Made by a program: the position numbers and the translations under genes. The notes under the pieces were generated by a model, which saw only the letters and a program-made list of their open reading frames with translations, ran no database searches and had not been told where the DNA came from. A DNA stretch of 64,000 nt from a virus (Duplodnaviria > Caudoviricetes): the IMG/VR virus record IMGVR_UViG_3300006802_000002, positions 917 through 64,916 of that record, one strand, 5' to 3'. Every line of letters starts with the position of its first letter. Position 1 is the first letter of the stretch. This document shows, one piece after another, positions 4,642 to 64,000 of the stretch.

Positions 4642-5371
4642 CACATTTAGTGTGAGTAAAGAAAATGGAGAACTCGTTTATTATTGCTTTAGGGCTTCTT
4701 GTCATATTGCTGGCAGGATTAGTACTGGCCGTACTATTGATGATGTCAAAGCTATTGCGTTGGGTACAGTGGATTTCAGAGGACTTACACGGAATAAAGA
4801 CGGAATTCAAGACTGTAAACCTGCATTTGAAATTCCTTGGTACTTTCAAAGTATAGCCACTAATAAAGATGCTCACGAATACCTAAGAAAAAATAACTGC
4901 CTAGGGGCGTACTATGACCGTGCTTGTAACATTATGTTTGATCCTCGCCTTAATCGCGTTGTATTCACAATCAGACGACGATTGGACGGGGTTTGCGTAG
5001 ATGCAGCGGGAAGACTTTTAAAGTATGCTAAGGGACAGCCTAAATGGCTCCGTTATGCTTCTAGCGATATGCCTTTTATCGTGGGCAGTAGAGATAACGC
5101 CGTTATTGTTGAAGACTGTGCTAGCGCTTGTGCTGTGTATTCTAGTGGGTATAGTGGCGTATCCTTACTTGGTACAAACTTAAAGAAAGCTTTTATTAGC
5201 GAACTTAAGCATTTTAAGAAGTGTTTTGTATGCTTGGATTTAGATGCTTCTAAGAAAAGCATTGAAATGTATAAAGCATTATCTCCATACACAGACGCAC
5301 ACATTAGATTTATTCCACAAGATTTAAAGTACTGTTCTCCAGAACAAATAAAAAATATTATTGGTGAATAA
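4547..5371 (+). CDS. DNA primase (Zn finger + TOPRIM)
   Basis: CPNC...CFRASC zinc finger, VIVED and LDLDA TOPRIM motifs; abuts the helicase gene. TTG start is uncertain. Confidence 0.85.
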   Translation: MNQQNIKTYLKTVQLKNHQNIRLNCPNCHGTNTFSVSKENGELVYYCFRASCHIAGRISTGRTIDDVKAIALGTVDFRGLTRNKDGIQDCKPAFEIPWYFQSIATNKDAHEYLRKNNCLGAYYDRACNIMFDPRLNRVVFTIRRRLDGVCVDAAGRLLKYAKGQPKWLRYASSDMPFIVGSRDNAVIVEDCASACAVYSSGYSGVSLLGTNLKKAFISELKHFKKCFVCLDLDASKKSIEMYKALSPYTDAHIRFIPQDLKYCSPEQIKNIIGE

Positions 5372-9434: not shown

Positions 9435-11546
9435 ATGCGAGTAATTTGTGCTGACATTGAAACAACAATCACAATTCTAGATGCAAAGAAAAAGAAAAAA
9501 GACCTATCGCCATTTAATTCAAATAATAAATTAGTTTCTGTTGGTTGGAAATTTATCGAAAACGGAAATATATTGCCGGGAGGATATGTATTTTTTCATC
9601 ATAAAGATTTGCCAAATATAGATGTTGTGAAAAGCTCGAAAGAGTTTCAGACAGCTTTAAGTTCTGCTGATATTTTTGTAGGGCACAATGCTAAATTCGA
9701 CGCTATGTGGCTTGAGCAATGTGGCTTTGTAATCCCTAAAGATATACGTTGTACTATGGTGCGTGAATACGTGCTTAATAGGGGCGAAAAGGATAGTCTA
9801 TCTCTTGAGGATTGCTGCATTGCTAATAATGTAGCCCTAAAGAAAAAGGATTTAGTACAGCCCTACCTAGATACTGGAATAATGTTCGATGAAATTCCTT
9901 GGGAAATTGTAGAGGAATACGGCAAGGGTGACGTGCAATCCTGTGCTGAACTATATTTAAATCAAGAGAAATTATATAATTTAGATGTGAATAAAGGGTT
10001 AATTAAGACCCGTGATATGATGTGTCAATTTACAGATGTTCTGTCTGAAATGGAACAGGCAGGAATTAAAATTGACCAAGCTAGACTTAAGCAAGTTGAA
10101 AACGAATTCACTAAAGAAAAGACTAACCTAGAGATACGTATTAAAGAACTTATCTCCGAGACCATGGGGGATACTCCTGTTAATATCAATTCCCCAGAAC
10201 AGTTATCTAAGGTCATTTATTCTAGGTCTCCACGAGATAAAGCAAAGTGGATAAAGACTTTTAATATTGGTTTGAATGTTCAAAACAAGCCGCTTAAACG
10301 CCCCTATATGGAGCCCTATGAATTCAGAAATAATGTCAGCGCATTGTGTGAAACTGCTTATAAGACAACAGCTAGCCAATGTAATAGCTGCACAGGTATG
10401 GGATACTTTTTTAAACAGAAAAAGAACGGTGAAAACTTCAAGAAAAGCACTAAATGTCCAAATTGTGAAGGTTCCGGCCTTTCGTATATTAAAACCGACG
10501 AAGTGGCCGGGTTTAAATTAATGCCTACTGGTGTGGATGATTGTGCTACTGGTGGGTTTAGTACAGACAAAGAAACATTAGAAAAGCTTTTAGATAAATC
10601 TAGAGGTAAAAAGAATGATAAAGCTGTAGAATTTCTTACAGCAATTATCAGAGTATCAGCATTAGACACGTACATTAATAGTTTTGTTAAAGGTATTGAA
10701 AGAGGAACACAAGCAAATGGCGTCCTTCATGCAAAGTTTAACCAGACGATTACATCTACCGGAAGATTGTCTAGTACAGACCCTAACCTTCAAAACCAGC
10801 CAAGAGGGAATACCTTTCCTATCAGGGGTGTCTTTATTTCAAGATGGGCAGGAAGTGGTGGAACATTATGCGAAACAGACTTCTCCCAACTTGAGTTTAG
10901 ATGTGCTGGACATCTTGCAGAGTGCTCTACAGTACGAAATGACGTTCTCGCAGGATTAGACGTACACAGTCAAACAGCTAAAATTCTAACTGATGCTGGA
11001 CAAGAGACAAATAGACAAGATGCTAAACCTCACACATTTAAACCTTTATATGGGGGATTAAGTGGCACAGACGCAGAAGTTACGTATTATAAGGCGTTTC
11101 TTGATAAGTATACTGGCGTTAAAAATTGGCATGTAAAATTACAAGAAGAAGCCATTAAATATAAGAAAATTACTCTACCTACAGGAAGGGAATACAGCTT
11201 TCCTTGGGTCATTCGTAATAGATGGGGTGGGGCTACCCATAAAACGCAGATTGTAAATTATCCTGTACAGGGGTTTGCAACTGCCGACATTGTGCCTCTG
11301 TCAATGATTTATTTAAAGCGCGAATATAAAAGATTGGGACTGAAAAGCTTGATTTGCCTAACCGTACATGATAGCATTGTTACCGATGTTTTCCCTGGCG
11401 AACTGGAAATTGTTGTAAAACTTCATAAAAATCTACATGGAATTGCAGAGCAAGCCTTGAAAGATTATTACGGAATTACTATGTATGTCCCGTTAGACAG
11501 TGAAACAAAAGTCGGACCCAATCTAATTGAAATGAAGAAGGTCTAA
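9435..11546 (+). CDS. polA: DNA polymerase family A with 3'-5' exonuclease and DnaJ-like Zn-finger insertion
   Basis: ExoI DIET, ExoII HNAKFD, ExoIII YGKGD; TGRLSS, motif A DFSQLE, motif B KPHTFKPLYG, motif C VHDS; insert CNSCTGMG...CPNCEGSG. Confidence 0.96.
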   Translation: MRVICADIETTITILDAKKKKKDLSPFNSNNKLVSVGWKFIENGNILPGGYVFFHHKDLPNIDVVKSSKEFQTALSSADIFVGHNAKFDAMWLEQCGFVIPKDIRCTMVREYVLNRGEKDSLSLEDCCIANNVALKKKDLVQPYLDTGIMFDEIPWEIVEEYGKGDVQSCAELYLNQEKLYNLDVNKGLIKTRDMMCQFTDVLSEMEQAGIKIDQARLKQVENEFTKEKTNLEIRIKELISETMGDTPVNINSPEQLSKVIYSRSPRDKAKWIKTFNIGLNVQNKPLKRPYMEPYEFRNNVSALCETAYKTTASQCNSCTGMGYFFKQKKNGENFKKSTKCPNCEGSGLSYIKTDEVAGFKLMPTGVDDCATGGFSTDKETLEKLLDKSRGKKNDKAVEFLTAIIRVSALDTYINSFVKGIERGTQANGVLHAKFNQTITSTGRLSSTDPNLQNQPRGNTFPIRGVFISRWAGSGGTLCETDFSQLEFRCAGHLAECSTVRNDVLAGLDVHSQTAKILTDAGQETNRQDAKPHTFKPLYGGLSGTDAEVTYYKAFLDKYTGVKNWHVKLQEEAIKYKKITLPTGREYSFPWVIRNRWGGATHKTQIVNYPVQGFATADIVPLSMIYLKREYKRLGLKSLICLTVHDSIVTDVFPGELEIVVKLHKNLHGIAEQALKDYYGITMYVPLDSETKVGPNLIEMKKV

Positions 11547-52336: not shown

Positions 52337-52386
52337 AAATTTTTAACTCCAGATATAAGAATTCTTTAGTACAGAATACAGAATAG

Positions 52387-52395
52387 ATTATAGCA
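52387..52395 (-). promoter_or_regulatory. Extended -10 promoter for the leftward structural arm
   Basis: TGcTATAAT on the minus strand, about 50 nt upstream of the first gene. Confidence 0.6.
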
Positions 52396-52439
52396 CAAAT
52401 TAATTAGAACATAAATATTTAAAAATGCAAGATATTTTC

Positions 52440-52930
52440 TAATTTTTTATGCTTTTCTCCAGGACACATTAATGAACATTAGAATGTCATATATAGGTTC
52501 ATTTATAATTATTATGTATTTTATAATAGAATTTGTATATTAAGAATATTATGAATTGTTTATTATATTTAAGATATATGTATTATATTAAGTATTTTCA
52601 TATATAACTTCATATAAGAAAGGATTTAAAATATATAATAATATCAATAGATTATATTATAATATTATGTATATATTAGTATTATAAGATATTATATATA
52701 ATATATAATATATATTATCTTATTCTTATACGTAGGAAGAAATTCTAGATTTCAAGGGGTAGTATGAAAAATATTTTATCCTTATCTGTAGGTTCATTAA
52801 TAAAAGGGTTTAAGTGCTATTAACACTTCTGTAGTTTTATTTTTTCTGGGTAAATTCGAGCTAGGGAAGTTATAGGAAATTTGAATTTGTTTATATGTGT
52901 ACTATTAACACTTCTGTATTTAGGTATTTT
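52440..52930. other. Extremely AT-rich non-coding element (origin-like), copy 1, with 17-bp direct repeats
   Basis: TATA-rich run; CTATTAACACTTCTGTA at 52817-52833 and 52902-52918. Confidence 0.55.
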
Positions 52931-53547
52931 ATAGGGGTATGGTATAACGCACCGTGGCCCGACCGATGGACCAAGCCCCCCAGTGTATACGCTCATTTAT
53001 ATTTATTAATGGCCCATGCACTCGCGTTAATTACTATAAATGTTTGTTTAAGTATATCGTGAGGCTAGCTTAGAATGTACATAAATTAGTTGTAGAATGT
53101 ATTGATAAGTACATAAAATTCTTGTGGGAAAGCCGGTCAAGGGAGCTGCAATGTATGCAAATATATTAACAACCTATGCAAATATATCATACCTTACATA
53201 TACAAATCTTTATTAGTTAATAAATCCAACCCATTAATAATTAAAAGTTAATATTCAGCTAATAATATATCACGCTAACCCATTGTTATCATTCAAACAC
53301 ATATTTCGCGTGTATAAGAAAAAATGGCCGTGTCAAAAAGTGTGCCAATGCACTTGACCGGGTATCCTAGGCGTTTCCCTTAGTTCAGGGTCAAACCCTC
53401 TAGAAAACGCTCTAATGAGTTTTTAAAGGCATATATCAATCCGATATAGCCTTGAAATATTCTTTCAAATACACTAAGGCATATACTAGTTAGCATTTGA
53501 TCCAATTTAATTCTTTCTCGCCTCATTGGGCGCCATATATAGAGACG

Positions 53548-53576
53548 TTGCAAACCGCCCTTAGCCGTGCTACATA
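53548..53576 (+). promoter_or_regulatory. Early host-type promoter
   Basis: TTGCAA-N17-TACATA (GCTACATA). Confidence 0.6.
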
Positions 53577-53740
53577 ATGGGCACCGGGCGACGCTATGCC
53601 CTGCCAAAACCCAAAGGGGTACACATGAATATCTTCAATTTCCGTATGCAAAAGGTCGGAGGGATTATGTTCCTTCGGCTTGGCAAGCTTTGCGTATCGT
53701 TCTGTATCTCTTCTAAACCTTTCTCAAGGGAGAGCTAATC

Positions 53741-54028
53741 ATGCGTCATATCGAAACCATCGAATTGCAGGGCCATATCTGCAAAATCATGTACGACCCG
53801 CGTCACGGGGAATATGTGGCACGCCTTAATGGCAACAGTGCTACGGACTATTTCACCGATGACAGAGACGACGCTATCGGTACCGCTAGGCACATGCTCG
53901 CGCGTTATGTGTTTACCATCGATTTTAACCTGGGGCGATGCAAGGTTAGTGATCTGCCAAAGTACACTTGGGAAAGCCTGAATAAGCTACAGGCTATGCC
54001 CGGTCACTTTTCCAAGCTTGGCGCTTAA
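53741..54028 (+). CDS. Early hypothetical protein
   Basis: GGGGAG RBS; DYFTDDRDDAIGTA motif. Confidence 0.65.
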   Translation: MRHIETIELQGHICKIMYDPRHGEYVARLNGNSATDYFTDDRDDAIGTARHMLARYVFTIDFNLGRCKVSDLPKYTWESLNKLQAMPGHFSKLGA

Positions 54029-54059
54029 TATCTCAACAATCCCAAAGGGGTAACAGAAA

Positions 54060-55538
54060 ATGCATACTTACTTTCCGAAGGCTAACAAGTTTCCGGGCCT
54101 TTGCGCTTTCTGCAATACGGCTGTAGATGCTTATGCAGGGACATATATCTATGTGAAGAAAGAGGGAGGTGGATTTAATCGCAAGGGTCGCCCGGAAGGC
54201 AGTTCACATATCTTTTGCTTCGCTCATTTCGAGGAGGCAAAACATGGGGAAATTCGCTTTGATCGCAAGGGTCAACCTATCTCTAAGGATAATCAGGATA
54301 ATTTGAGCGATGAAACCATAGAACAATGGTTTACCAATAATCAGAATTTAATCTCTAAGCATATGAGCATGGTTAGGCAGCTAACGCTTAACGGGTATTC
54401 TAAAGAAACTATTAAAGAACATATTTTAAAGGCTGAAAAAGCCTTAGATGAAATCGACGCCAAACCTATCGAGGAAACTAAAGATGATGATATGGGCAAC
54501 CTTGGGGGAATCCTTAAGCGTGCCCTAGAAAGCCATGAGAACGTCGAGGAAGGCAATCAAGACAATTCCGAGGGTTTCCCCTCGGATGACGCTCAAACTC
54601 TCGCAAAGATGATCCAAAAGCTTGCGGGAAAGGCTAGCGTGGATGAAAGGCAGGTAGCGAATATCGTTCGCAATGAAATTGAGGGGCTTACTCAATTGCT
54701 TGTGGACGTTGAAACCCGCATGGATAGCAAGATTGCAGCTATCCAAACCACTCCCCCGACCAAGCTTGAAATTAAACAGGGCAATGATATCAAGCTTATC
54801 GACACGGGTTTGCAACATGAAATCCTGCCCGATGTTCTCGTGCCTATCTCGCAAGGCTTGCACGTCTTTCTTGTGGGGCCGGCTGGTTCAGGCAAAACCA
54901 CTATTGGGGAGCAAATCGCTAAGGCTGTTGATAAGCCCTTTTATTCAACGGGGGCCGTTGATAGCAAATATGCCTTGATTGGCTTCAAGGATGGACATGG
55001 CAACTATCAAAGCACGGTATTCCGTAAGTGTTTTGAAGAGGGTGGCGTATTCCTCTTTGACGAAATGGACGCTAGCAGCGCCAATGCCTTGCTATCGTTC
55101 AATGCTGCCCTAGCTAACGGTCACTGTGATTTCCCCGACGGTATCGTTACGCGCCACCCTGACTTTGTGGCAATCGCAGCGGCAAACACTTTCGGGCATG
55201 GCGCAGACCGTATCTATGTGGGTCGCAATCAGCTTGATGCCGCTACCTTGGATCGATTTGTAACGGTCGAAATGGGATATGACGCCAAGCTAGAGCGTGC
55301 AATGTGTGGCAATGATCCGCTTGCCGTTCGTTGGGTTGATTATGTGCAGCGTACCCGCAAGGCAGTTACGGACCTGCAAATGAGGTACGTGGTTAGCCCT
55401 AGGGCTTCGCTACAAGGCTCCAAGCTTCTTTCCGCTGGCATGGATAGCGGCAAGGTGGCGAAGGCTACCCTCTATCGCGCTATGAAGTCGGAGGACATTG
55501 CCAAGGTACAGGCACACACTGGAACGTTTAACGTCTAA
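54060..55538 (+). CDS. MoxR/CbbQ/CobS-like AAA+ ATPase with N-terminal Cys/His domain
   Basis: GPAGSGKT, FLFDEMD, AAANTFG, RNQLDAATLDRF and SPRA motifs. Confidence 0.88.
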   Translation: MHTYFPKANKFPGLCAFCNTAVDAYAGTYIYVKKEGGGFNRKGRPEGSSHIFCFAHFEEAKHGEIRFDRKGQPISKDNQDNLSDETIEQWFTNNQNLISKHMSMVRQLTLNGYSKETIKEHILKAEKALDEIDAKPIEETKDDDMGNLGGILKRALESHENVEEGNQDNSEGFPSDDAQTLAKMIQKLAGKASVDERQVANIVRNEIEGLTQLLVDVETRMDSKIAAIQTTPPTKLEIKQGNDIKLIDTGLQHEILPDVLVPISQGLHVFLVGPAGSGKTTIGEQIAKAVDKPFYSTGAVDSKYALIGFKDGHGNYQSTVFRKCFEEGGVFLFDEMDASSANALLSFNAALANGHCDFPDGIVTRHPDFVAIAAANTFGHGADRIYVGRNQLDAATLDRFVTVEMGYDAKLERAMCGNDPLAVRWVDYVQRTRKAVTDLQMRYVVSPRASLQGSKLLSAGMDSGKVAKATLYRAMKSEDIAKVQAHTGTFNV

Positions 55539-55613
55539 GGCTTTGGCTTGAGGAAGCTAGAAAGGCTTCCTCTTTCTTAAGCTTTCGACCACTAACCAAA
55601 GGGAATTAGGAAC

Positions 55614-56438
55614 ATGGTGCACAAGGTAGAATTCGACAGTCTGGAAAGCCTCTTAAGGTATGTAGAGACTGCGCCACATATTCCGGGTCGTTTGCGAGTC
55701 TCTGAAAAAAACGATCACGAAAGTCTTACTTGGACTGGGGGCTTAACGCTACCCGAAGCTATCCGTTCGGCGCGGTATGGCTGGAAAGAGGGTTATGACA
55801 AGCTAGCGCAATCTATGTCAGCAATTCCTACCGCTATTTCCTTCGCCAAAATTCCTAGCATGGGCTTAGACGTAGCCGGATCATTCCCCTTCATTCCGGC
55901 CGCAGTAGCCGGTGACCCTCTGAATATGTGGTCTCTTAACGAGGATAGCTCTAAAACAAAGCCAGTTATTCGTATTTATCAGCGTCTTAGTTATACCGCC
56001 AATGTTAACGCTTCAAACATTATGAATTTTGGCGCGGCCGTTCTTAGCCTTGTCGATGGTCTAGAAGATGCTGGTTATAGGACGGAAATATTCGGGTATC
56101 GGTCTAGCGAAACTCTCTATAAAGAGATTAATTTCCAAACAATCAAGCTTAAAGAAGCCTCTGAACCATTGGATGTTAGCCGATTGTCTTTTCCGTTTGC
56201 TAATCCTGCCATGCTGAGACGCGTTCTGTTTAAACTTTCTGAGGTGCATCCGAACGTTGCCTTTTGCCGCGTGTATGGGAAATCATGTGCGGCGGACCCT
56301 AAACTATTTGAGCCGAATAGCATCGTCATACCTACCGCTCCCGGGGTAATCCCATGCGGCACTCTTAAGGATGCAGTCGAATACGTGAAAGGCTTTGTTA
56401 AAGCTTCCCCTTGGGCGGACGCTATCGAATTTGAGTAG
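55614..56438 (+). CDS. vWA-like partner of the AAA+ ATPase (putative)
   Basis: Directly downstream; G..A.....D.LE..G..TEI and HP-like NPAMLRR pattern of phage AAA partner proteins; canonical MIDAS DxSxS not seen. Confidence 0.55.
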   Translation: MVHKVEFDSLESLLRYVETAPHIPGRLRVSEKNDHESLTWTGGLTLPEAIRSARYGWKEGYDKLAQSMSAIPTAISFAKIPSMGLDVAGSFPFIPAAVAGDPLNMWSLNEDSSKTKPVIRIYQRLSYTANVNASNIMNFGAAVLSLVDGLEDAGYRTEIFGYRSSETLYKEINFQTIKLKEASEPLDVSRLSFPFANPAMLRRVLFKLSEVHPNVAFCRVYGKSCAADPKLFEPNSIVIPTAPGVIPCGTLKDAVEYVKGFVKASPWADAIEFE

Positions 56439-56685
56439 CCGCTAGCCTCATTAGGAAGCCTAGAAAGGGCTTCTTAGGCTTTACCCTATGCACTCTAGCC
56501 AAAAGTATCTAATGCGTTCCTAGCCTCTTTAATGGGGTTTTAGCGCTATATCTAGTTGATATATGCTGACTTGATATAGCTTTGCATGTGGTTTAAGTTT
56601 AGTTAAAGTTTTACGTATTTGTTTATTAAATGCTTATGTTTGATGTGAGTCACATATCAATAAAATTTAATCTAAATAAATTAGT

Positions 56686-56714
56686 TTGTCCTTATTCAAT
56701 GGTCGAGCTACATC
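56686..56714 (+). promoter_or_regulatory. Early promoter (alphaproteobacterial type)
   Basis: TTGTCC-N17-TACATC (GCTACATC), A/T tracts upstream, AGGAG RBS downstream. Confidence 0.55.
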
Positions 56715-56742
56715 TAATCCTCACACTCAGGAGTTTTGAAAC

Positions 56743-58067
56743 ATGGAAAGATACCTCGTATTCGCTGGCGTGGATTACCCTGGCCGAAATTTGGCTAAGG
56801 GAGGCTTTAGAGACTTCCAAATGGCCTTTGCCAGCCTAGACCATGCTAAGACATACGCTAGGGCTTTTGGAGAGCAGCGGTTTAGCTGGTCACACGTTGT
56901 AGACACTCGCACTAACTCAATGGTCGCGGAGTTTCGAGGGAAGTACGAATAAGAAATAAAATTACAAACTTTTTCGCTTGCAATGTTCGATGAGGTAGCT
57001 TAAGTTTCTAGTCAGCCAAGGGACAAACCCTCAATACCGAGGGAGCCCAATAGGCAACTAACTAGGAGTGTATATCATGAATAAGTCTCTTTTCCTCGCT
57101 TGTGTCACTACCGCTAATGATGTCTTCTACCGTGTGCCGACCGCTGATGGTCGCGTGTCCACCCTCAAGGGGAACAAGCGTGACATTCTTAAGCAGGCTA
57201 AGGAATGGGCTCCCGAAGCCCCTGTGATTGCCAGCATGGACGACAAGGGTAATCTGATGATCGGTTAACCCGTTATGCTTAATTTTGGGGGATGATTATT
57301 AAATTAATTGTCCCCCTTAATTAAGCATAACAAAAGGTGAGTACAATGTCTAAAAAAGATTTTATTGTAGTTGCAAATATGCTCATAGGCATCCGATGGG
57401 CATATGTCGGAGCTAGCAGAGCGGGTACTTTTTATTCTGCTAATGCAGACATTTTAAAAAATAAGTATACAAAATTTAACAAAGAAAAATTTGTTGCTTT
57501 TTGTCTTAAGCAAGATGGAGAAGGCGTTTAATAATCTAATAGGACAATTCCGTCCTATTAAATAGCAGGGGAATTAAAATGCTCATTACCTATGAATACA
57601 AGATGAACGGCGTTTGGTACTCTGTGCAGAACGAAAAGGAACTGAACAATGTTCTGGCTAACCATCACATCCCTCTTAGGGTTACTATCATCACTGATTT
57701 TGGTGTTGTGATTATGGAGTGTTAATTATGGACCCATGTGGTTGATGGTTTGAATAACTAATTAAATGTTCGCAACACTAGGGGGATTAATTTCCCCCCT
57801 TTTTCTTTTAATAATGGAGAAATAAATGCAAGGTCAATGGCAGTATTATAGTGACACTTATCATGAATGGGTTACTGTAAAGCATCCCAACGCTAAATGG
57901 TATGCAGGTATTCTTAAAAGAGATTATGGATATCTTATTAGGCAAGTGTATACAGGATGACACAAGATTGCTGGGCGTATTGGTGGGTTAAACGTACTGT
58001 AGCTAACCACTATAAAAAGCATAACTATATTATCATAGAGTTCTATAAGAAACATTTTCAAGTATAA
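56743..58067 (+). CDS. Small early hypothetical proteins (56743-56952, 57068-57268, 57337-57531, 57579-57725, 57826-57960, 57957-58067)
   Basis: Most have a clear RBS; several are separated by hairpins; the three shortest were translated by hand. Confidence 0.6.
56978..57006 (+). promoter_or_regulatory. Early promoter
   Basis: TTGCAA-N17-TAAGTT with upstream A-tracts. Confidence 0.6.
57781..57809 (+). terminator. Rho-independent terminator
   Basis: GGGGGA-ttaatt-TCCCCC followed by CTTTTTCTTTT. Confidence 0.75.
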
Positions 58068-58100
58068 ACAAAAATTTACGAAAAAGACTGAAAATACCGC

Positions 58101-58129
58101 TTGCAACGGCCGATAGTTTCGATTATGTT
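58101..58129 (+). promoter_or_regulatory. Promoter at the head of the ncRNA locus
   Basis: TTGCAA-N17-TATGTT with phased A-tracts (UP-element-like) upstream; no RBS or ORF follows. Confidence 0.65.
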
Positions 58130-58133
58130 TGGT

Positions 58134-59480
58134 TTGTCAGACGGCGGAACCTAGAAAGTAGCGAAGCGACACAAGAGCCTTCCAAGCTTTCTAGGTACTG
58201 CCAGAGACAACGGCCGATGCGACGGGTAACTTAAATCACGCATCAAGAGACGGGCTAGGTACTCTTTAAATTCTCTAGCTAATATCCCGAGTAAGGTGGG
58301 CGAATACCTTAAGGGGCCTTTCCTGTAGCAGTACAGGCATCTAGTCCGGTAATAGGCTAGGTTTAAAATAGGTGGGTTGGCTAGAGATAGCCGTTGCCTG
58401 GATCAGCAAAAACAAATTCGATTTGTTTATTAGGGAATTAATAAGCATTGGGTACGGATTGAGCTACCCGATAAAGAAGTTCCTGTTACAATTATCCAAT
58501 GCTTATTAACCCTTAATGAAGCCTATCACGATATGAATTATCCTTAGCCACATCACATAGCATACTACTAAGATGATAGAAATGTTTTGGTAGGCTTCAT
58601 TAAGGGTTAATTAATAAATTACTTAAAAGGCATGCCTCCTCCGTCCTAATTAAGTATGTAACAATTAATTAACCCTTACATTACCCCTTGAGGACTACAT
58701 TATACATGTGGTTTCACGCCTAAAAGACTGTTGTGCTATTTAAGAATGTCTAGATAGCAAAGGGCGACAGGAATAGGGAGATTATTGTCCCCATATTTGG
58801 GGGATAAACAGCGGTAAAGGCATTGAAGCGAGGGTTTAGTCACTCTCGGGGAGCCTTTCGACAGGGCTTAGCTAACCCTGGAAGTCACTCCTAAAGACTA
58901 TGGGAGTGGAGCCGCATATTAGATTGGGAAGTCCCTGTGGAAACTATGGGATAGCAGATAATGGTAATACGAGCCCTCGAAAGCGGCGTTACCTTCCCTC
59001 TGTTATTGCCGTGCGGCGGGTGGTTTTAATGTTACAGGATTACGTATTTAGAAATAAATACAGACAACATATGGCATTCAATACCCCATATGGAAACGTT
59101 AAAAATATTCTGCGGGGTTAAAAGCCCTTATGTATAGGTGGGAGGATACAATGCCCATAATACATAATAGTAGAGCCTGGGACGGCAACCTTATTTACCC
59201 CTTAATAGGAAACTTAAGAAGCCCTATTAATTCCCCAAGTTTTCGGTTATCTTGCGGGTAGCAAAACCGTCAATATAGCGCGCTTATGTTTATAGATCAG
59301 GGGTGAGCCTGTAGACATAAGACAAACCATGATGAATGGGTTTAATAGGATATGCGTATTCCTCCAATCCGCTCTCTATCCCGCGCTATTATTTTATGGG
59401 CCTTCTTTAATGCTAAGATTACTTGTGTACATCCCAAGTAAGCTAAAGGTAAATCCCTTTACAGGCCCTTTAATTATCGC
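58134..59480 (+). ncRNA. Large structured non-coding RNA locus (one long RNA or a polycistronic sRNA cluster)
   Basis: About 1.35 kb with no convincing ORF; continuous series of stems and multi-way junctions; the mismatches in the long stems are G-U compatible on the + strand. Confidence 0.7.
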
Positions 59481-59807
59481 CAGGGTAGTGATACCCTTCA
59501 AATAACATAGGCTTATGGCAAGCTTAAACAATACATTTATTTGGGCGGTATTCATGATTACTTTAGCATTTCTTCTATGTATTCGTATGCACTACCTAGA
59601 AGATAACTCTTGTTATGTGCATGAACTTTATTCTCCTAAAGAATATTTAATAGAGAATAAACAAGCTATCATGGATTACGCTAGAAATAACTTTATGACT
59701 GTTGCAATGTTTACTGTGAGATTTTAATGCCTAATATTATAGAGATCAGCGCAGCACTTGTTATGTTAGGTATTGCATTCTTTGTTGCTGCCCCAATGTT
59801 ACATTAA

Positions 59808-60134
59808 ATGACCCTACAAATAACTCCCGATAATCTTTGGAATTCTTTTAAAAATAGGTGGCAAATGCGTATGACCGATCTAGAGACTACTCCCGACATT
59901 CAGAAGCGCATGGACGATACCCTAGCTTCTGAGAAGCCTTATAAGGGTCGCATTACGAATTGGGAAAAGGTCCAGCATAGTGGCGCTAAGGGGCTTGGGT
60001 ATATCATTACTGGAGTTTACGTAGACCATCCTAGTTTCCGTGGTGAAACGGGCTATACGTCCTACGTCACTAAGCATGACGAAAAGACTGGTGAAATTGA
60101 AACTAAGAATTCTAGATATACGCTAGTTCTTTAG
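59808..60134 (+). CDS. Hypothetical protein
   Basis: Ends TSYV...IETKNSRYTL, a motif common in small phage proteins. Confidence 0.65.
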   Translation: MTLQITPDNLWNSFKNRWQMRMTDLETTPDIQKRMDDTLASEKPYKGRITNWEKVQHSGAKGLGYIITGVYVDHPSFRGETGYTSYVTKHDEKTGEIETKNSRYTLVL

Positions 60135-60147
60135 ATTTGTTTTTAGT

Positions 60148-60232
60148 GCCCGCATGGCGGAATTGGGAGACGCGCCTCGCTTAAGACGAGGTATCGTAAG
60201 GTGTGGGGGTTCAAGTCCCTCTGCGGGCACCA
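60148..60232 (+). tRNA. tRNA-Leu(TAA)
   Basis: GCCCGCA/TGCGGGC acceptor, CCTCG-CTTAAGA-CGAGG anticodon arm, long variable arm, CCA. Confidence 0.93.
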
Positions 60233-60248
60233 ATTTAAAGGCTTGCAC

Positions 60249-60707
60249 ATGAATATATTTTATCTTGATGACGATATTAATAAATCTGTGCAATATCTTG
60301 TGGATAAGCACGTTGTTAAAATGCCGTTAGAGACAGCACAATTGTTGTCTTCTGCTATTTATCTTAATGGTGGGCAAGGCCCATATAAACCAACACATTT
60401 AAAGCATCCGTGTACTTTGTGGGTTGCTTCTGATGAATGCAATTACATTTGGTTGTCTAACTACGGTCTAGCTTTATGTAAAGAATATACTTTCAGATAT
60501 CACAAGCAACATGCTTGTGAGAGAGTTATTCTTGACATGCCTGCTGTTCCTGTGTTTAAAACTATAAATAAGTTTACCCTTCCCCCACAATGTATGCCTG
60601 ATGAATATAAACAAAGCAACACTGTAGAGGCTTACAGGGCCTATTACAGAGGCGCTAAGAAGCATATACATAAGTGGACAGGTAGACCTGTTCCTGATTG
60701 GATTTAA
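60249..60707 (+). CDS. Pyrimidine-dimer DNA glycosylase / endonuclease V-like protein
   Basis: MNIFYLD...DKHVVKMPLETAQLLS, HPCTLW, EYTFRY, PQCMPDEYK and AYRAYY. Confidence 0.75.
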   Translation: MNIFYLDDDINKSVQYLVDKHVVKMPLETAQLLSSAIYLNGGQGPYKPTHLKHPCTLWVASDECNYIWLSNYGLALCKEYTFRYHKQHACERVILDMPAVPVFKTINKFTLPPQCMPDEYKQSNTVEAYRAYYRGAKKHIHKWTGRPVPDWI

Positions 60708-61006
60708 CATATTGCGCGTATTATTCAGTTACGTATAGCAATTTCGCTATAGGATAATAACAAATAAACAATAGTGTGACATTCATGCACTCACGCCGCG
60801 CTGTAATTTAGGAGATATTAAAATGGTCACTCCATTTACAAGAGGCTGGCAAGATTTTTGGAAGTTTTATCATTTTGAAAAAGATAATCTTGCTAGCCCT
60901 TATAACGCGAATAGTGAAAAGGACTTAGATTGGGTATCGGGTATGCTGGACGCTCAACGTACTTGTATACGTTTATACTTTAAGCCCATTAACTTGTATT
61001 AAATAA

Positions 61007-61084
61007 GGCCCCTTAGCTCAGTTGGATTAGAGCAGTGAATTTCTACTTCACGGGTCACAGGTTCAAGTCCTGTAGGGGTCACCA
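61007..61084 (+). tRNA. tRNA-Arg(TCT)
   Basis: GGCCCCT/AGGGGTC acceptor, GTGAA-TTTCTAC-TTCAC anticodon arm, GGTTCAAGTCC, CCA. Confidence 0.92.
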
Positions 61085-61102
61085 CTTCTTTAACTTTAAA
61101 CA

Positions 61103-63162
61103 ATGGTCGAAACAATGAATACTATGGTAGGGCGTGTTATTCAGACTAATATTGTGTCTAATCCTGATTTTAGTAATGCTATTCAGCTTAAGTCAGGTAT
61201 TCCACAAGTGTTACTTGGTGGTAATAAGTCAGGCTTTCTAAAGGTCAAGAAGTACGGCAATGGAGCGCAGGGCGATAAGAATGCCCGTTGGCGCCGCAAG
61301 CCTATGCTTAAGATGCTGTATGCAGCTTGGAAGTCTAAGGGCGGGGGTAAGAAGGATGGTTGAAGATATTATTGATCTTATCACTGTGATTACAGGGTGT
61401 ATTGTATTTCTGTATACGACTTATCAAATTTGGAGAGATTAATGTTTAACACTCGCCTTAAGGAAATTCTTGATCGTAATGGCTATCCACATGCTAGGGA
61501 TGGTCTAGATAAACTTACTACGTACCATGAGAATATCGCCATTACCGCATGGAACAATTGGGGACGTAATAGTAAGATTACTTCTCTTATTCAGGTAGAT
61601 TTGGAACGATAAATATGCATTACGATGTTATTGGTACAGCTTTAGCATTTGCTCTGTACCCTACTTTCTTCTATTTATATATTAAATTCCATGACTTAAA
61701 GTGAAAGGAAACTAATCATGGGCTTTTTTCATATGGCTTTTGAGTACACGATTGCATTGTCAGCCCTGCTCACTCACGGAATTGTGACCAAGCTTCCAAT
61801 TAAAAAGCTTGAGCATGGGCTTGCGGTCCTGGCATTATTGGGCGCTGTCATTACCTCTAGCATGATGTCAGCCGAGCATATCACTAACTCAGGAATGATT
61901 GTGTAATGAAAATCTGTCCTAGGCGTCCTTTAAAGGTTCCCAAGGATTTCGGTACTAGATTAGCTCCTATTGATCCAACGTTTACCTTACCTGCGTATGG
62001 TATAAATAGAAATGCAAAAGAGATTACAGAATTTTTTTACAGAACAAAGTACAGATTTTGGGATAAACCAGAAGCTAAGTACGCTAGAGGCAGAGACCCG
62101 TGCTATTACAAGAATGATCCTACTTACAACCTATAGAAAGATTTAAAATGCGTAAGTCACATACTCTTGAAAACGGGCATAAGATCAATATTGCCGACGC
62201 TAAGTTTTTTATTCTAAAGAACACTGATACTGGTGCTAGCGTTCTACTGCTTGCAAATGATAGGGAGCAGCTTGACAAATATCTTGCATCCGTAAATCGT
62301 CGTGCGGAAGCTACTAATAAGCCGTTTATTACTGTCGGCGTTGAGTTTGATGAGTGTACTACTGATGATCTTGCGGAAATGCTTTCCATGGGGAATTTAA
62401 TTGCTTCTGGTAAGTATCAAGACATTCGTATGTTTACTGACGAAATTCTTAACTCTATTTAACATAAAAGATTTTTAAAATGGCTAAGGCTTATATCGTT
62501 TATAATGCTAAGAATAATACGCCGTTTATGTGTCTTATGGTTAATGATCGTAGTCAGGCCGACACTTTCCTTGATGTACAGGCAGCAACGGCTGCTGATG
62601 CTGGTTTCCCTGAACTTGCCAAGGAAAATGCTAAGTATTATGCAGATAATAATCTCATTAAGGAAATTGATGAGACTACGGAAGATACGAATTTGCAGCT
62701 TGCTTTCCTCCATCTTGTTTCTAAGAATAGTTTTATGGACTTGCGCGGCAAGTCCTTTGATGTCGTTTAACAGGAGTATTTAAAATGAACGCCGTTAATG
62801 CTAATAAGTCTGACGCTATGCGTAAGCTTGGTTGGTCTATGTTCCTTGTGCATGATCCCCTGCTTAATGAGAACGATGTTCTTCCTCAGAATACCAAGGA
62901 CTATCTTGTGATTAAGAGTGATAGCATTGACAAGATTAAGTTTATTAATACTAATCTTGTTACTTACGCTGAACTTAATAAGAACGGATTTCATGACAAG
63001 CTCCAGAATACTGTTAGGGAACTTGATCCTTCCAATCCGAAGGATGTTTTGTTTAGTGTTATGTCTTCGATTAATAGGCGTGTGCTTGATCTTACCAAGT
63101 GGTCGGACGAGGATATCGTCGCCAAGTCTAAGACTGTCTGTGGAGTGACCTCTACGCCTTAA
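61103..63162 (+). CDS. Cluster of small hypothetical proteins (61103-61363, 61718-61906, 61906-62136, 62148-62462, 62480-62770, 62785-63162 and others)
   Basis: ORF track; RBS motifs; same-strand packing. Confidence 0.55.
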
Positions 63163-63264
63163 TAGGAATATCCTAGAATATCGCTAAAGGGTCCGGGTTA
63201 GTCAGAGTACCTGGACCTACCTAGCGTCTCTGTACGGGCTCCTAATGCGATTTGGCGCTACATT

Positions 63265-63495
63265 AATGTATTATTAAAGAAGTATTATAATAACCTTTAA
63301 GTAAAATATAATCTAAACATATTCTAGAAGATATTAGAGAACATTATAATACATATATAATATCTTAAAATTATAAGATATCTAATAATATATAAAATAC
63401 TATAAATATATTATATATTCTTAAATATCTTACGTAAGTAGAAAATTTTAATTTCAAGGGGCTTGAACAAAAATATTTTAACCCTATCTGTACCC
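63265..63495. other. Extremely AT-rich non-coding element (origin-like), copy 2
   Basis: Shares TACGTA, ATTTCAAGGGG, AAAAATATTTTA and TATCTGTA with copy 1 at identical spacing. Confidence 0.55.
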
Positions 63496-64000
63496 CAGAA
63501 TTTTTGTTTTTGAAATCAATTTTTTATGTGGAGTTTGTAAATTATGTCCGATACTAAAGACCCTGTTGGATTTTTTGTTGGACCTTCTAAAATTCGCCGT
63601 CTTAACAAGTGGCGTAATCGTCATAAGAAGGCTGCACAACATCGAATGAACCATGTTGAGCGTGCTAATAAGAATAGAGGTAATCTTAAGCGTGGGGGTA
63701 AGTAATGGATAGTTATATTATCGTTCATGGTGCTGGATTAACTGCATTAGTATTTTGTGTTATTGTTATTTGTGTAGCTTCCATTTGGAATGTGTGGAAT
63801 ATTATGAGGCTTAAGTAATGGATATTACATATATTCCTAAGAAAGAAGATGTTAAGCATCAAACTAAATGCTTTGAAGTGTTCAATAATCTTTATCCTAG
63901 TATTAAAGAAGAAGATGTAGTTGTCTTAACTATGTCTAAGAAAGATGCGAGTGTTCTTGCACTTCTTTTGCAGGAATTTTCAAGTAAAGAAGATGGTTCA

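What the first reader, a model, noticed from the sequence alone, without database searches (positions are those of the whole stretch)
58101..59480. About 1.35-kb promoter-driven, densely structured non-coding RNA locus in the early region
Seen: in an otherwise gene-packed genome, a clear promoter (58101-58129) is followed directly by back-to-back folded domains. These include ACCTAGAAAG/CTTTCTAGGT (58149-58196); a ~190-nt multibranch domain closed by CAACGGC/GCCGTTG (58208-58396) with inner TCTCTAGCTAAT/GTTGGCTAGAGA; three long hairpins (58438-58678); a 4-way junction (58811-58915); a junction closed by ATAGCGCG/CGCGCTAT (59275-59389); and one closed by GGGCCT/AGGCCC (59398-59468). tRNA genes follow within 1-2 kb. 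Known: large phage ncRNAs (GOLLD, ROOL) occur near tRNAs, but I could not match this locus to them by eye. Inference: an undescribed long RNA, or a polycistronic cluster of small RNAs made at the start of infection (decoys, anti-defence or host silencing).
Basis: partly seen in the sequence, partly recalled or inferred. Interest (0 to 1): 0.85.

Follow-up and report, generated by a model that had tools for sequence, protein, structure and literature searches.

The report
Orphan folded noncoding stretch, aquatic phage
A 1.4-kb stretch of an uncultured water phage carries no believable genes and folds into hairpins more than chance would give, so it probably makes non-coding RNA early in infection, but nothing related was found elsewhere and its job is unknown.

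Summary
The stretch 58068-59514 is non-coding by three tests: no ORF over 73 aa, non-coding composition, and no protein relatives. It lies in a 64.9-kb phage with terminal repeats, distantly of the HMO-2011 type.

Folding beats shuffles for 58136-58920 and 59270-59475 (segment z -2.8 to -9.0). It does not for 58920-59270 (z about -1.4). The plus strand folds somewhat better than the minus strand.

The "clear promoter" matches sigma-70 at only 8 of 12 positions. The same GCTTGCAA-N17-TAxGTT form recurs before another early gene.

No Rfam family matches. I found no homologue in phage records, IMG/VR, one metagenome scan, six whole related phages or species genomes, so covariation could not be tested. 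No RNA run was listed.

Best reading (about 0.45): an untranslated, modular early RNA on the plus strand, with three long hairpins as RNase III-type processing or stability sites. Decoy or anti-defence roles are pure speculation. A functionless spacer or scar remains a serious rival.

The scan has noted gene-free folded early-region RNAs in other phages, but none resembles this sequence.

The parts
58068..59514 (+). Whole non-coding stretch between the stop of the 36-aa ORF (58067) and the start of the 70-aa ORF (59515)
   Evidence: Longest ORF is 73 aa. It is one of only two stretches of at least 400 nt in the window without a 50-aa ORF. Coding-model scores are non-coding in all six frames. 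GC is 0.419 against 0.383 for the window.
58101..58129 (+). Promoter-like site TTGCAA-N17-TATGTT (inferred start near 58136)
   Evidence: It matches sigma-70 at 8 of 12 positions and is not in the generic scan. The same GCTTGCAA-N17-TAAGTT lies at 56976-57006 before gene 57068. The pattern gives 3 matches against 0.62 expected. A third TTGCAA-N17 site lies at 53548 before the first early gene.
58143..58202 (+). M1: 5' hairpin, 16-nt arms
   Evidence: Inverted repeat I5. Fold z is -5.09, with 0 of 200 shuffles as good.
58205..58400 (+). M2: about 190-nt multibranch domain closed by CAACGGC/GCCGTTG
   Evidence: Minimum energy -67.8 kcal/mol, z -2.79, 1 of 200 shuffles as good. The minus strand gives z -4.20, so the strand is not settled by this domain.
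58438..58509 (+). Hairpin A, 17-bp arms
   Evidence: I2, 94% complementary. The single mismatch is G.T on the plus strand (my reading).
58505..58611 (+). Hairpin B, 24-bp arms
   Evidence: I1, 96% complementary. The single mismatch is T.G on the plus strand. It shares 5 nt with hairpin A and 11 nt with hairpin C.
58601..58678 (+). Hairpin C, 15-bp perfect arms
   Evidence: I3. Hairpins A to C folded together give z -9.03, with 0 of 200 shuffles as good. ATTAACCCTTA occurs exactly three times in the window, all in these hairpins.
58684..58803 (+). M3: three-hairpin segment
   Evidence: z -2.91 on the plus strand. A second run gave -3.28 on plus against -0.83 on minus.
58811..58915 (+). M4: four-way junction, cloverleaf-shaped, 105 nt
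   Evidence: Minimum energy -42.0 kcal/mol, z -3.23. Weak, non-significant match to the drum RNA model: 17.4 bits against a 43-bit threshold, E 3.4. Not a tRNA.
58920..59270 (+). Weakly structured segment, including a 36-aa micro-ORF at 59151-59261 with GGAGG 5 nt before its ATG
   Evidence: z -1.50 and -1.27. It is the only ORF in the stretch with a good ribosome-binding site. Its coding score is -0.105 bits/nt. Its only library matches are two long proteins, each matched in 5-6 separate stretches.
59275..59389 (+). M5: four-way junction closed by ATAGCGCG/CGCGCTAT
   Evidence: Minimum-energy fold of 59270-59475, z -3.21, 0 of 200 shuffles as good. The inner 13-bp hairpin I11 has two T.G pairs on the plus strand.
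59398..59468 (+). M6: 71-nt cloverleaf closed by GGGCCT/AGGCCC
   Evidence: It is tRNA-sized, but ARAGORN does not call it even at a relaxed threshold, nor does the Rfam tRNA model.
59515..61084 (+). Context downstream on the same strand: small ORFs 59515-59727, 59727-59807 and 59868-60134, tRNA-Leu 60148-60232, gene 60249-60707, tRNA-Arg 61007-61084
   Evidence: No terminator-like site on the plus strand lies between 59030 and 60330.

Best explanation
The stretch is an untranslated, modular piece of early RNA read rightward on the plus strand.

Inferred steps:
1. Host sigma-70 polymerase starts at the TTGCAA-N17-TATGTT site, near 58136.
2. It transcribes about 1.35 kb without any translated gene.
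3. It runs on into the small ORFs and the two tRNA genes downstream.

The RNA folds into separate modules. These are a 5' hairpin (M1), a 190-nt multibranch domain (M2), three back-to-back hairpins of 15-24 bp (A-C), and four smaller multi-stem modules (M3-M6).

The long hairpins are of the length that bacterial RNase III cuts. A hairpin of the same build lies between two early genes upstream. I therefore read A-C as processing or stability sites. They would cut the primary transcript into a roughly 300-nt 5' RNA and a 3' part that leads the downstream messages and tRNAs.

Shown: the stretch is non-coding, folds above background, leans to the plus strand, and has a recurring promoter-like motif.

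Inferred: transcription, processing, and any function. Dense folding would also shield a long untranslated RNA from Rho and nucleases.
For: Non-coding:
- The longest ORF is 73 aa.
- The 9 candidate ORFs score -0.193 to +0.009 bits/nt in frame with little contrast between frames. The 19 flanking small genes score -0.026 to +0.111 with strong contrast.
- The 73-aa ORF finds only itself among 5.8 billion clusters, and the 58-aa ORF finds nothing.
- Five ORFs inside the stretch had no Pfam match up to E 1. In PHROGs one had a single weak match, E 0.28.

Structure:
- Six of seven consecutive segments have z of -2.79 or lower.
- Fixed windows average -1.83, against a background of -0.63 with sd 1.22.

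Strand:
- Minimum energy is lower on plus in 7 of 7 segments, and z is lower on plus in 5 of 7.
- Over the whole stretch the energy is -434.5 on plus against -396.1 kcal/mol on minus.
- I took the five inverted repeats with arms of at least 13 nt, at least 85% complementarity and arms at most 59 nt apart. Their mismatches are 5 G.T, 1 A.A and 0 A.C as read on plus.
- The intercistronic hairpin 57272-57330 has two more G.U pairs on plus.

Promoter:
- GCTTGCAA-N17-TA(A/T)GTT lies at 56976 and 58099, both in plus-strand non-coding spots. The pattern gives 3 matches against 0.62 expected, and 2 of 100 shuffles reach 3.

Hairpin length:
- An idealised E. coli RNase III substrate is a 22-bp helix, and the minimum is about 11 bp (passages of PMC3867540).

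Assembly:
- Contigs of other runs bridge both borders. X3 covers 57800-58302 and X11 covers 59307-59560.
Against: - No homologue was found anywhere, so there is no covariation and no sign of purifying selection.
- The segment 58920-59270 folds no better than shuffles.
- M2 folds relatively better on the minus strand, z -4.20 against -2.79.
- An unselected count over all 15 stems of at least 10 bp gives G.T 12 against A.C 8, which is not significant.
- The promoter matches sigma-70 at only 8 of 12 positions. The looser TTGCAA-N16-18 pattern is not enriched: 15 against 10.25 expected.
- No canonical terminator ends the RNA.
- z near -3 occurs in 3-4% of ordinary windows.
Confidence: 0.45

Rival explanations
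1. It is a spacer without a job of its own. It would be the scar of early genes that were lost or scrambled, still punctuated by the hairpins this phage places between its early cistrons. It may be transcribed passively.
For: - It is an orphan: no relative turned up in any collection searched.
- Relatives that carry the neighbouring 89-aa gene have no such gap. None of 16 viral loci has a gap of 400 nt or more. Of 20 metagenome loci, only 2 have a gap of 300 nt or more, both at contig ends.
- Similar long hairpins stand between ordinary early genes, such as 57272-57330 with z -7.73.
- A quarter of the stretch is not structured.
Against: - No frame shows a decayed long gene: the longest stop-to-stop frame is 83 aa, and no six-frame coding signal is left.
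- Folding is above background in six of seven segments, with a lean to the plus strand.
- GC is higher than in the neighbouring small genes, 0.419 against 0.352 and 0.381.
- By general knowledge, phage genomes rarely keep 1.4 kb of useless DNA.
Confidence: 0.27
2. It is a cluster of very small genes, micro-proteins of about 30-70 aa, rather than RNA genes.
For: - Plus-strand ORFs of 73, 43 and 58 aa tile 58900-59505.
- The ORF 59151-59261 has GGAGG 5 nt before its ATG.
Against: - In-frame coding scores are -0.058 to -0.114 bits/nt with no frame contrast.
- No homologues were found.
- The 43-aa ORF matches only two long proteins, each in 5-6 separate stretches.
- The other ORFs have no ribosome-binding site scoring 4 or more.
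- 58107-58899 has no ORF of 50 aa at all.
- A diverged contig in run X3 aligns over 59131-59231 with eight 1-2-nt deletions around the micro-ORF start. It is a single contig at depth 3.7, so this is weak.
Confidence: 0.08
3. It is a DNA-level element, such as a replication origin, a recombination site or a protein-binding site. The inverted repeats would then act as DNA.
For: - The three long, nearly perfect inverted repeats share ATTAACCCTTA three times.
- The scan's first-reader notes suggest paired origin-like elements elsewhere in this genome (untested).
Against: - There are no iterons. The direct repeats are two-copy families of 10-22 nt.
- The stretch is not AT-rich, GC 0.42. The clearly AT-rich part lies at 52337-52730, GC 0.15.
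- Cumulative GC skew rises through 54000-64000 with only small local dips and no turning point; its turns are near 23 kb and 50-52 kb.
- The imperfect positions in the repeats are G.T on one strand only, which points to RNA.
Confidence: 0.07
4. The RNA is made from the minus strand. It would be a transcript of about 1.4 kb starting near 59470 and ending at a weak hairpin with a T-run at 58110-58096.
For: - A minus-strand promoter-like site TTGAAG-17-GATAAT lies at 59501-59473.
- A terminator-like site lies at 58110-58096.
- M2 has the better z on minus.
Against: - Five of seven segments have the better z on plus, and all seven have the lower energy on plus.
- G.T mismatches favour plus.
- The 'terminator' stem has 6 pairs, two of them G.T by my reading. 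It overlaps the plus-strand -35 box.
- All neighbouring genes are on plus.
Confidence: 0.05

Closest known systems
GOLLD and ROOL large non-coding RNAs
   Same: They are large, gene-free, multi-domain folds that often lie near tRNA genes and in phage DNA (passages of PMC5737381). Here tRNA genes lie 0.7 and 1.5 kb downstream.
   Different: No match to any Rfam model, even at E up to 10 over 57700-59900. That Rfam holds both families is my recollection. The stretch is about twice their size. The folds here are unsupported by covariation, and the stretch looks like a chain of modules rather than one closed fold.
Long non-coding early RNAs of the crAss-like Cellulophaga phage phi14:2
   Same: They are intergenic regions of a phage transcribed from the earliest time point at high level, with function unknown (passages of bioRxiv 10.1101/2020.03.07.982082).
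   Different: Those RNAs were seen by RNA sequencing, and the early genes of that phage are read by its own virion polymerase. Here nothing is known about transcription, and the site in front is sigma-70-like. No sequence comparison was made.
RNase III processing hairpins of phage T7 early transcripts (recalled, no call) and RNase III substrates in general
   Same: They are long hairpins between parts of an early polycistronic transcript. Helix lengths of 15-24 bp lie within the substrate range, with about 11 bp as minimum and 22 bp as ideal (passages of PMC3867540).
   Different: T7 sites sit between translated genes, and by my recollection they carry an internal loop. Here three stand in tandem inside a gene-free stretch and share arms. 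Cleavage is untested and the host is unknown.
Stable small RNAs encoded beside the tRNA genes of phage T4 (species 1 and 2 RNAs; recalled, no call)
   Same: They are phage non-coding RNAs of unknown role, co-located with tRNA genes and, as I recall, matured from a shared precursor.
   Different: There is no sequence or model to compare with. The stretch here is far larger, and small ORFs separate it from the tRNAs.

Membership tests
GOLLD / ROOL (Rfam) | Match to the family covariance model | tested here: not met
   The window gave only 4 tRNA matches at gathering scores. Over 57700-59900 there were 9 matches up to E 10, none of them GOLLD or ROOL and the best at E 3.4. That both families are in the library is recalled.
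GOLLD / ROOL (Rfam) | Location near tRNA genes or in phage DNA | tested here: met
   tRNA-Leu lies at 60148 and tRNA-Arg at 61007. The record is a phage with terminal repeats.
drum RNA (RF02958) | Score at or above the gathering threshold of 43 bits | tested here: not met
   17.4 bits, E 3.4, at 58818-58917.
tRNA or tRNA-like gene | Cloverleaf accepted by ARAGORN or by Rfam RF00005 | tested here: not met
   No call inside 58068-59514 at default settings. At the relaxed 80% threshold there was one weak call at 58787-58855, and none at M4, M5 or M6. By my reading, the M6 loops lack the usual T-loop and D-loop letters.
RNase III processing site | Double-stranded helix of about 11-22 bp or more within a transcript | tested here: met
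   Arms of 17, 24 and 15 bp, fold z -9.03. Length criteria come from PMC3867540.
RNase III processing site | Cleavage by RNase III | not testable with these tools
   Needs an enzyme assay or RNA-end mapping.
rRNA-type antitermination leader (boxA) | A boxA sequence downstream of the promoter | tested here: inconclusive
   The 8-letter core occurs at 58262 and at 56525, both in plus-strand non-coding spots. The window as a whole has 6 matches against 4.98 expected. The full 12-letter consensus, recalled from memory, has no match within 3 mismatches at 58262.
Replication origin | Iterons, an AT-rich unwinding part, and a turn in the skew | tested here: not met
   No repeat family with more than 2 copies, GC 0.42, and no turn in the skew at this place.
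Intrinsic-terminator-bounded small RNA | GC-rich hairpin followed by a U-run at the 3' end | tested here: not met
   The only plus-strand site inside the stretch is a weak one at 59006-59019, with 5 pairs. None follows M6.

The most novel reading that the evidence does not exclude
The stretch encodes a new family of phage non-coding RNA. One form would be a single large multi-domain RNA of about 1.3 kb, in the league of GOLLD and ROOL. The other would be an operon of stable RNAs whose tRNA-sized cloverleaf modules (M4-M6) are matured together with the downstream tRNAs and act as decoys against host RNA-targeting defences.
Probability: 0.13. Interest if true: 0.75.

Novelty: new variant of a known kind. 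Interest (0 to 1): 0.35.

Why it matters
HMO-2011-type phages are described as a dominant, widespread marine group (abstract of PMC9038755). In the library searched, no paper holds both 'HMO-2011' and 'noncoding RNA'. That paper's main text has no occurrence of 'non-coding' or 'noncoding'.

A promoter-led 1.35-kb untranslated RNA in such a phage would add to the growing list of large phage RNAs with unknown roles. As it stands, the locus is a single orphan sequence from an uncultured phage. It is a candidate worth a look in metatranscriptomes, not yet a discovery.

Tried and rejected
Homologue hunt, all negative:
- blastn (distant mode) of 58000-59600 against 50,697 phage records: no match.
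- nhmmer of 58068-59514 against 80 IMG/VR loci carrying the phrog_624 gene: none.
- The neighbouring 108-aa and 274-aa genes have no relative in IMG/VR.
- A profile of the 89-aa neighbour gene (A1, 7 sequences) found 16 viral loci and 20 metagenome loci. None gave an nhmmer hit. blastn gave only pieces of 13-20 nt at E 0.67 or above.
- Six whole related phages were fetched (G003, G006-G010; capsid 44-51% identical). nhmmer found none.
- Exact words from the stretch gave only unrelated hits. In IMG/VR an 18-mer gave 8 loci, one 16-mer 37 and another 1. In species genomes a 21-mer gave 0 and an 18-mer gave 1, a Glutamicibacter chromosome sharing 23 nt.
- Single-sequence covariance models of M4 and M6, searched over 55 sources (631,133 bases), found only themselves. 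R2 also gave an E 0.034 match on its own reverse strand and an E 4.2 match in L182.
- The scan's own index holds no look-alike stretch in another genome.

Runs:
- The look-up of sequencing runs listed 18 DNA-type rows from 14 studies. No RNA holder was listed.
- I laid 4 runs. X7 and X8 gave identical figures and are probably one data set filed twice.
- All hold short, low-depth contigs that are 99-100% like the stretch, so they give no useful variation.
- X11 holds 58191-58388 at depth 16.1 and 59307-59560 at depth 6.1, with no cover over 57000-58127. This could mean that these modules also sit in another genome there.
- In X7/X8 a depth-4.6 contig over about 57957-58083 has 13 changes and skips 57804-57956. 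Whether it belongs to the same strain as the 99% pieces cannot be told.

Other ideas dropped:
- Pseudo-tRNAs.
- drum RNA (passages of PMC5737381).
- Enrichment of CCTCC anti-Shine-Dalgarno motifs. There are 3 overlapping-counted hits at 2 places, too few to judge.
- A boxA leader.
- A repeat elsewhere in the genome.
- A decayed gene.
- An origin.

Full report
WHERE IT LIES

The window is bases 917-64916 of a 64,916-bp IMG/VR virus record with direct terminal repeats, rated 100% complete. PHROG matches name a portal/adaptor, a major head protein, a DNA polymerase and a ribonucleotide reductase. The head protein is 44-46% identical to those of Roseobacter CRP phages, Puniceispirillum phage HMO-2011 and Pelagibacter phage HTVC033P. 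The phage is therefore a distant member of the HMO-2011-type podoviruses.

The layout is as follows:
- Genes at 1-22.6 kb run rightward.
- The structural genes at 23-52.3 kb run leftward.
- From 53.7 kb a block of mostly small rightward genes runs to the right end.

The finding lies inside that last block. I take the block to be early by its position and its small genes; this is an inference.

Between the stop of a 36-aa ORF (58067) and the start of a 70-aa ORF (59515), no ORF exceeds 73 aa. No stop-to-stop frame exceeds 83 aa. In the whole window only two stretches of 400 nt or more lack any 50-aa ORF: 52337-52819 and 58107-58899.

I trained a three-periodic second-order Markov model on 39 long genes of the window (mean 0.103 bits/nt, sd 0.044). 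It gives these in-frame scores:
- 19 flanking small genes: -0.026 to +0.111 bits/nt, with other frames at -0.02 to -0.38.
- 9 candidate ORFs inside the stretch: -0.193 to +0.009 bits/nt, with hardly any contrast between frames.

Protein searches agree:
- The 73-aa ORF finds only itself in 5.8 billion clusters.
- The 58-aa ORF finds nothing.
- Five ORFs inside the stretch have no Pfam match up to E 1, and only one PHROG match, at E 0.28.
- The 43-aa ORF matches only two long proteins, each in 5-6 separate stretches.

I conclude that the stretch is non-coding. One possible exception is a 36-aa micro-ORF at 59151-59261, which has GGAGG five bases before its ATG.

The stretch is not an assembly artefact. 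Contigs from other sequencing runs bridge both borders:
- X3 covers 57800-58302 with 0 differences.
- X11 covers 59307-59560 with 0 differences.

IS IT FOLDED MORE THAN CHANCE?

I cut the stretch into seven consecutive segments. Their plus-strand z-scores against dinucleotide shuffles are as follows:

| Segment | z |
|---|---|
| M1 | -5.09 |
| M2 | -2.79 |
| Hairpins A-C | -9.03 |
| M3 | -2.91 |
| M4 | -3.23 |
| 58920-59270 | -1.50 |
| M5+M6 | -3.21 |

A second run gave similar values. The borders were placed at stems, which flatters these numbers.

With fixed 150-nt windows at 50-nt steps, the 27 windows starting at 58100-59400 average -1.83 on plus (my arithmetic). Five of them are at or below -3. 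The background is 107 windows spread over 1-32000: mean -0.63, sd 1.22, with 3.7% at or below -3.

The stretch is therefore more folded than ordinary sequence of this genome. The excess sits in 58136-58920 and 59270-59475. The three long hairpins carry much of it. About a quarter of the locus is unremarkable.

WHICH STRAND?

Evidence for plus:
- The minimum energy is lower on plus in 7 of 7 segments, and z is lower on plus in 5 of 7.
- The whole stretch gives -434.5 kcal/mol on plus against -396.1 on minus.
- Fixed windows average -1.83 on plus against -1.07 on minus.
- I took the five inverted repeats with arms of 13 nt or more, at least 85% complementarity and arms at most 59 nt apart (I1, I2, I3, I5, I11). 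By my reading their imperfect positions are G.T five times, A.A once and A.C never on plus. On the minus strand the G.T positions would be A.C mismatches. Five of five has a one-sided chance of 0.03.

Evidence against or neutral:
- Domain M2 has the better z on minus, -4.20 against -2.79.
- An unselected count over all 15 stems of 10 bp or more gives G.T 12 against A.C 8.

The lean to plus is real but modest.

SIGNALS AROUND IT

It matches sigma-70 at 8 of 12 positions by my count, below the 9 needed by the generic scan, which did not list it.

The same extended form does recur:
- GCTTGCAA-N17-TAAGTT lies at 56976-57006, in front of the gene starting at 57068.
- The pattern CTTGCAA-N15-19-TANNTT has 3 matches in the window against 0.62 expected, and 2 of 100 shuffles reach 3.
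- A third TTGCAA-N17 site lies at 53548, before the first gene of the block. That looser pattern is not enriched overall: 15 against 10.25 expected.

So the promoter is plausible, not clear.

The early block is punctuated by hairpins:
- A 25-pair hairpin lies at 57272-57330 between two genes. Its z is -7.73 and it has two G.U pairs on plus.
- A strong terminator lies at 57781-57798.

Hairpins A-C (17, 24 and 15 bp) are of the same build. They share arms with one another: A and B share 5 nt, and B and C share 11 nt. The word ATTAACCCTTA occurs exactly three times in the window, all in these hairpins.

No canonical terminator closes the stretch. The next plus-strand terminator-like site after a weak one at 59006 is at 60330. 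A transcript would therefore run on into the small ORFs and the tRNA-Leu and tRNA-Arg genes.

WHAT IT IS NOT

- Not a known RNA family. No Rfam family matches at gathering scores. With permissive filters over 57700-59900 the best of 9 matches has E 3.4. That match is drum RNA, at 17.4 bits against a 43-bit threshold.
- Not a tRNA. ARAGORN calls none inside at default settings, and only one weak call at 58787-58855 at 80% threshold.
- Not an origin. There are no iterons and the GC is 0.42. The truly AT-rich part lies at 52337-52730, GC 0.15. The skew rises through the block without a turning point here.
- Not shown to be an antitermination leader. The 8-letter boxA core occurs at 58262, but the motif is not enriched in the window: 6 against 4.98 expected.

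RELATIVES

None could be found.
- Sequence searches against phage records, IMG/VR loci, metagenome loci and six complete related phages gave nothing.
- Exact-word scans in IMG/VR and in species genomes gave only unrelated hits.
- Two single-sequence covariance models found only themselves.
- Phages that carry the neighbouring 89-aa gene have no comparable gap next to it.
- The laid runs hold only 99-100% identical pieces.

Covariation, the test that would settle the matter, could therefore not be run.

HOW IT MOST LIKELY WORKS

My best reading (0.45) is an untranslated, modular early RNA on the plus strand.
- It starts at the TTGCAA-type promoter and continues into the downstream small genes and tRNA genes.
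- Hairpins A-C act as RNase III-type processing or stability sites. Their helix lengths fit the enzyme's known range, about 11 bp minimum and 22 bp ideal (passages of PMC3867540).
- Dense folding would also protect a long untranslated RNA from Rho and nucleases (general knowledge).

Whether the released pieces act in trans or merely form a processed leader cannot be told. Decoy and anti-defence roles have no evidence.

The main rival (0.27) is a functionless spacer or gene-loss scar that keeps the phage's usual hairpin punctuation. Smaller rivals are a micro-ORF cluster (0.08), a DNA-level element (0.07) and a minus-strand RNA (0.05).

COMPARISON AND NOVELTY

It resembles GOLLD and ROOL in being a large gene-free fold near tRNA genes in phage DNA (passages of PMC5737381), but it fails their models.

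It also resembles the abundant early long non-coding RNAs of the crAss-like phage phi14:2 (passages of bioRxiv 10.1101/2020.03.07.982082), but transcription is unknown here.

The scan's notes list many gene-free folded early-region stretches in other phages: 134 notes hold the search words. None looks like this sequence.

I class it as a new variant of a known kind: an orphan phage early non-coding region. Interest is moderate to low until expression or covariation is shown.

Noticed in passing
window 52337-53740: A second ORF-poor stretch of about 1.4 kb lies between the leftward structural genes and the first rightward gene. It has an extremely AT-rich part (52337-52730, GC 0.15) and then about 1 kb at GC 0.37 with only short ORFs of 75 aa or less. 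The only Rfam hint is Yfr13, 23.7 bits against a 39-bit threshold, E 0.49.
   Followed up: partly
window 57272-57330: A 25-pair hairpin (13 bp, a small internal loop, then 12 bp) lies between two small early genes. Its z is -7.73. It carries TTAATTAAGCAT, close to the arm of hairpin A. It is a likely intercistronic processing or stability site.
   Followed up: partly
window 53548-53576, 56978-57006, 58101-58129: Three plus-strand TTGCAA-N17-TAxxxx sites lie in non-coding spots of the rightward small-gene block. They may be this phage's early promoter type. Two of them share the longer GCTTGCAA.
   Followed up: partly
window 59151-59261: A 36-aa micro-ORF with GGAGG 5 nt before its ATG. It is the only ORF with a good ribosome-binding site inside the non-coding stretch. 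Its composition is non-coding.
   Followed up: partly
window 59808-60134: The 108-aa ORF is probably an 89-aa gene starting at 59868. The database cluster P0001 has 89 aa, and the relatives of 70-141 aa align only from there.
   Followed up: yes
L222 about 4798-4865 (G008:44798-44865) and L228 about 10300-10365 (G010:50300-50365): Two related phages share a conserved non-coding motif (GCAGGGTGGCG ... ATAACCC ... ACTATCCAG) inside their own ORF-free gaps. G008 also has a textbook TTGACA-N17-TATAAT promoter there.
   Followed up: no
window 57000-61200: Pieces 99-100% like this phage were laid from a freshwater run (X3), a marine pair that looks like one data set filed twice (X7/X8), and a second freshwater run (X11). 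These come from three or four studies, all at low depth.
   Followed up: partly
window 56525-56532 and 58262-58269: The 8-letter boxA-like core CTCTTTAA occurs twice on the plus strand of the small-gene block, both times in non-coding spots. The window-wide count is not above chance.
   Followed up: partly
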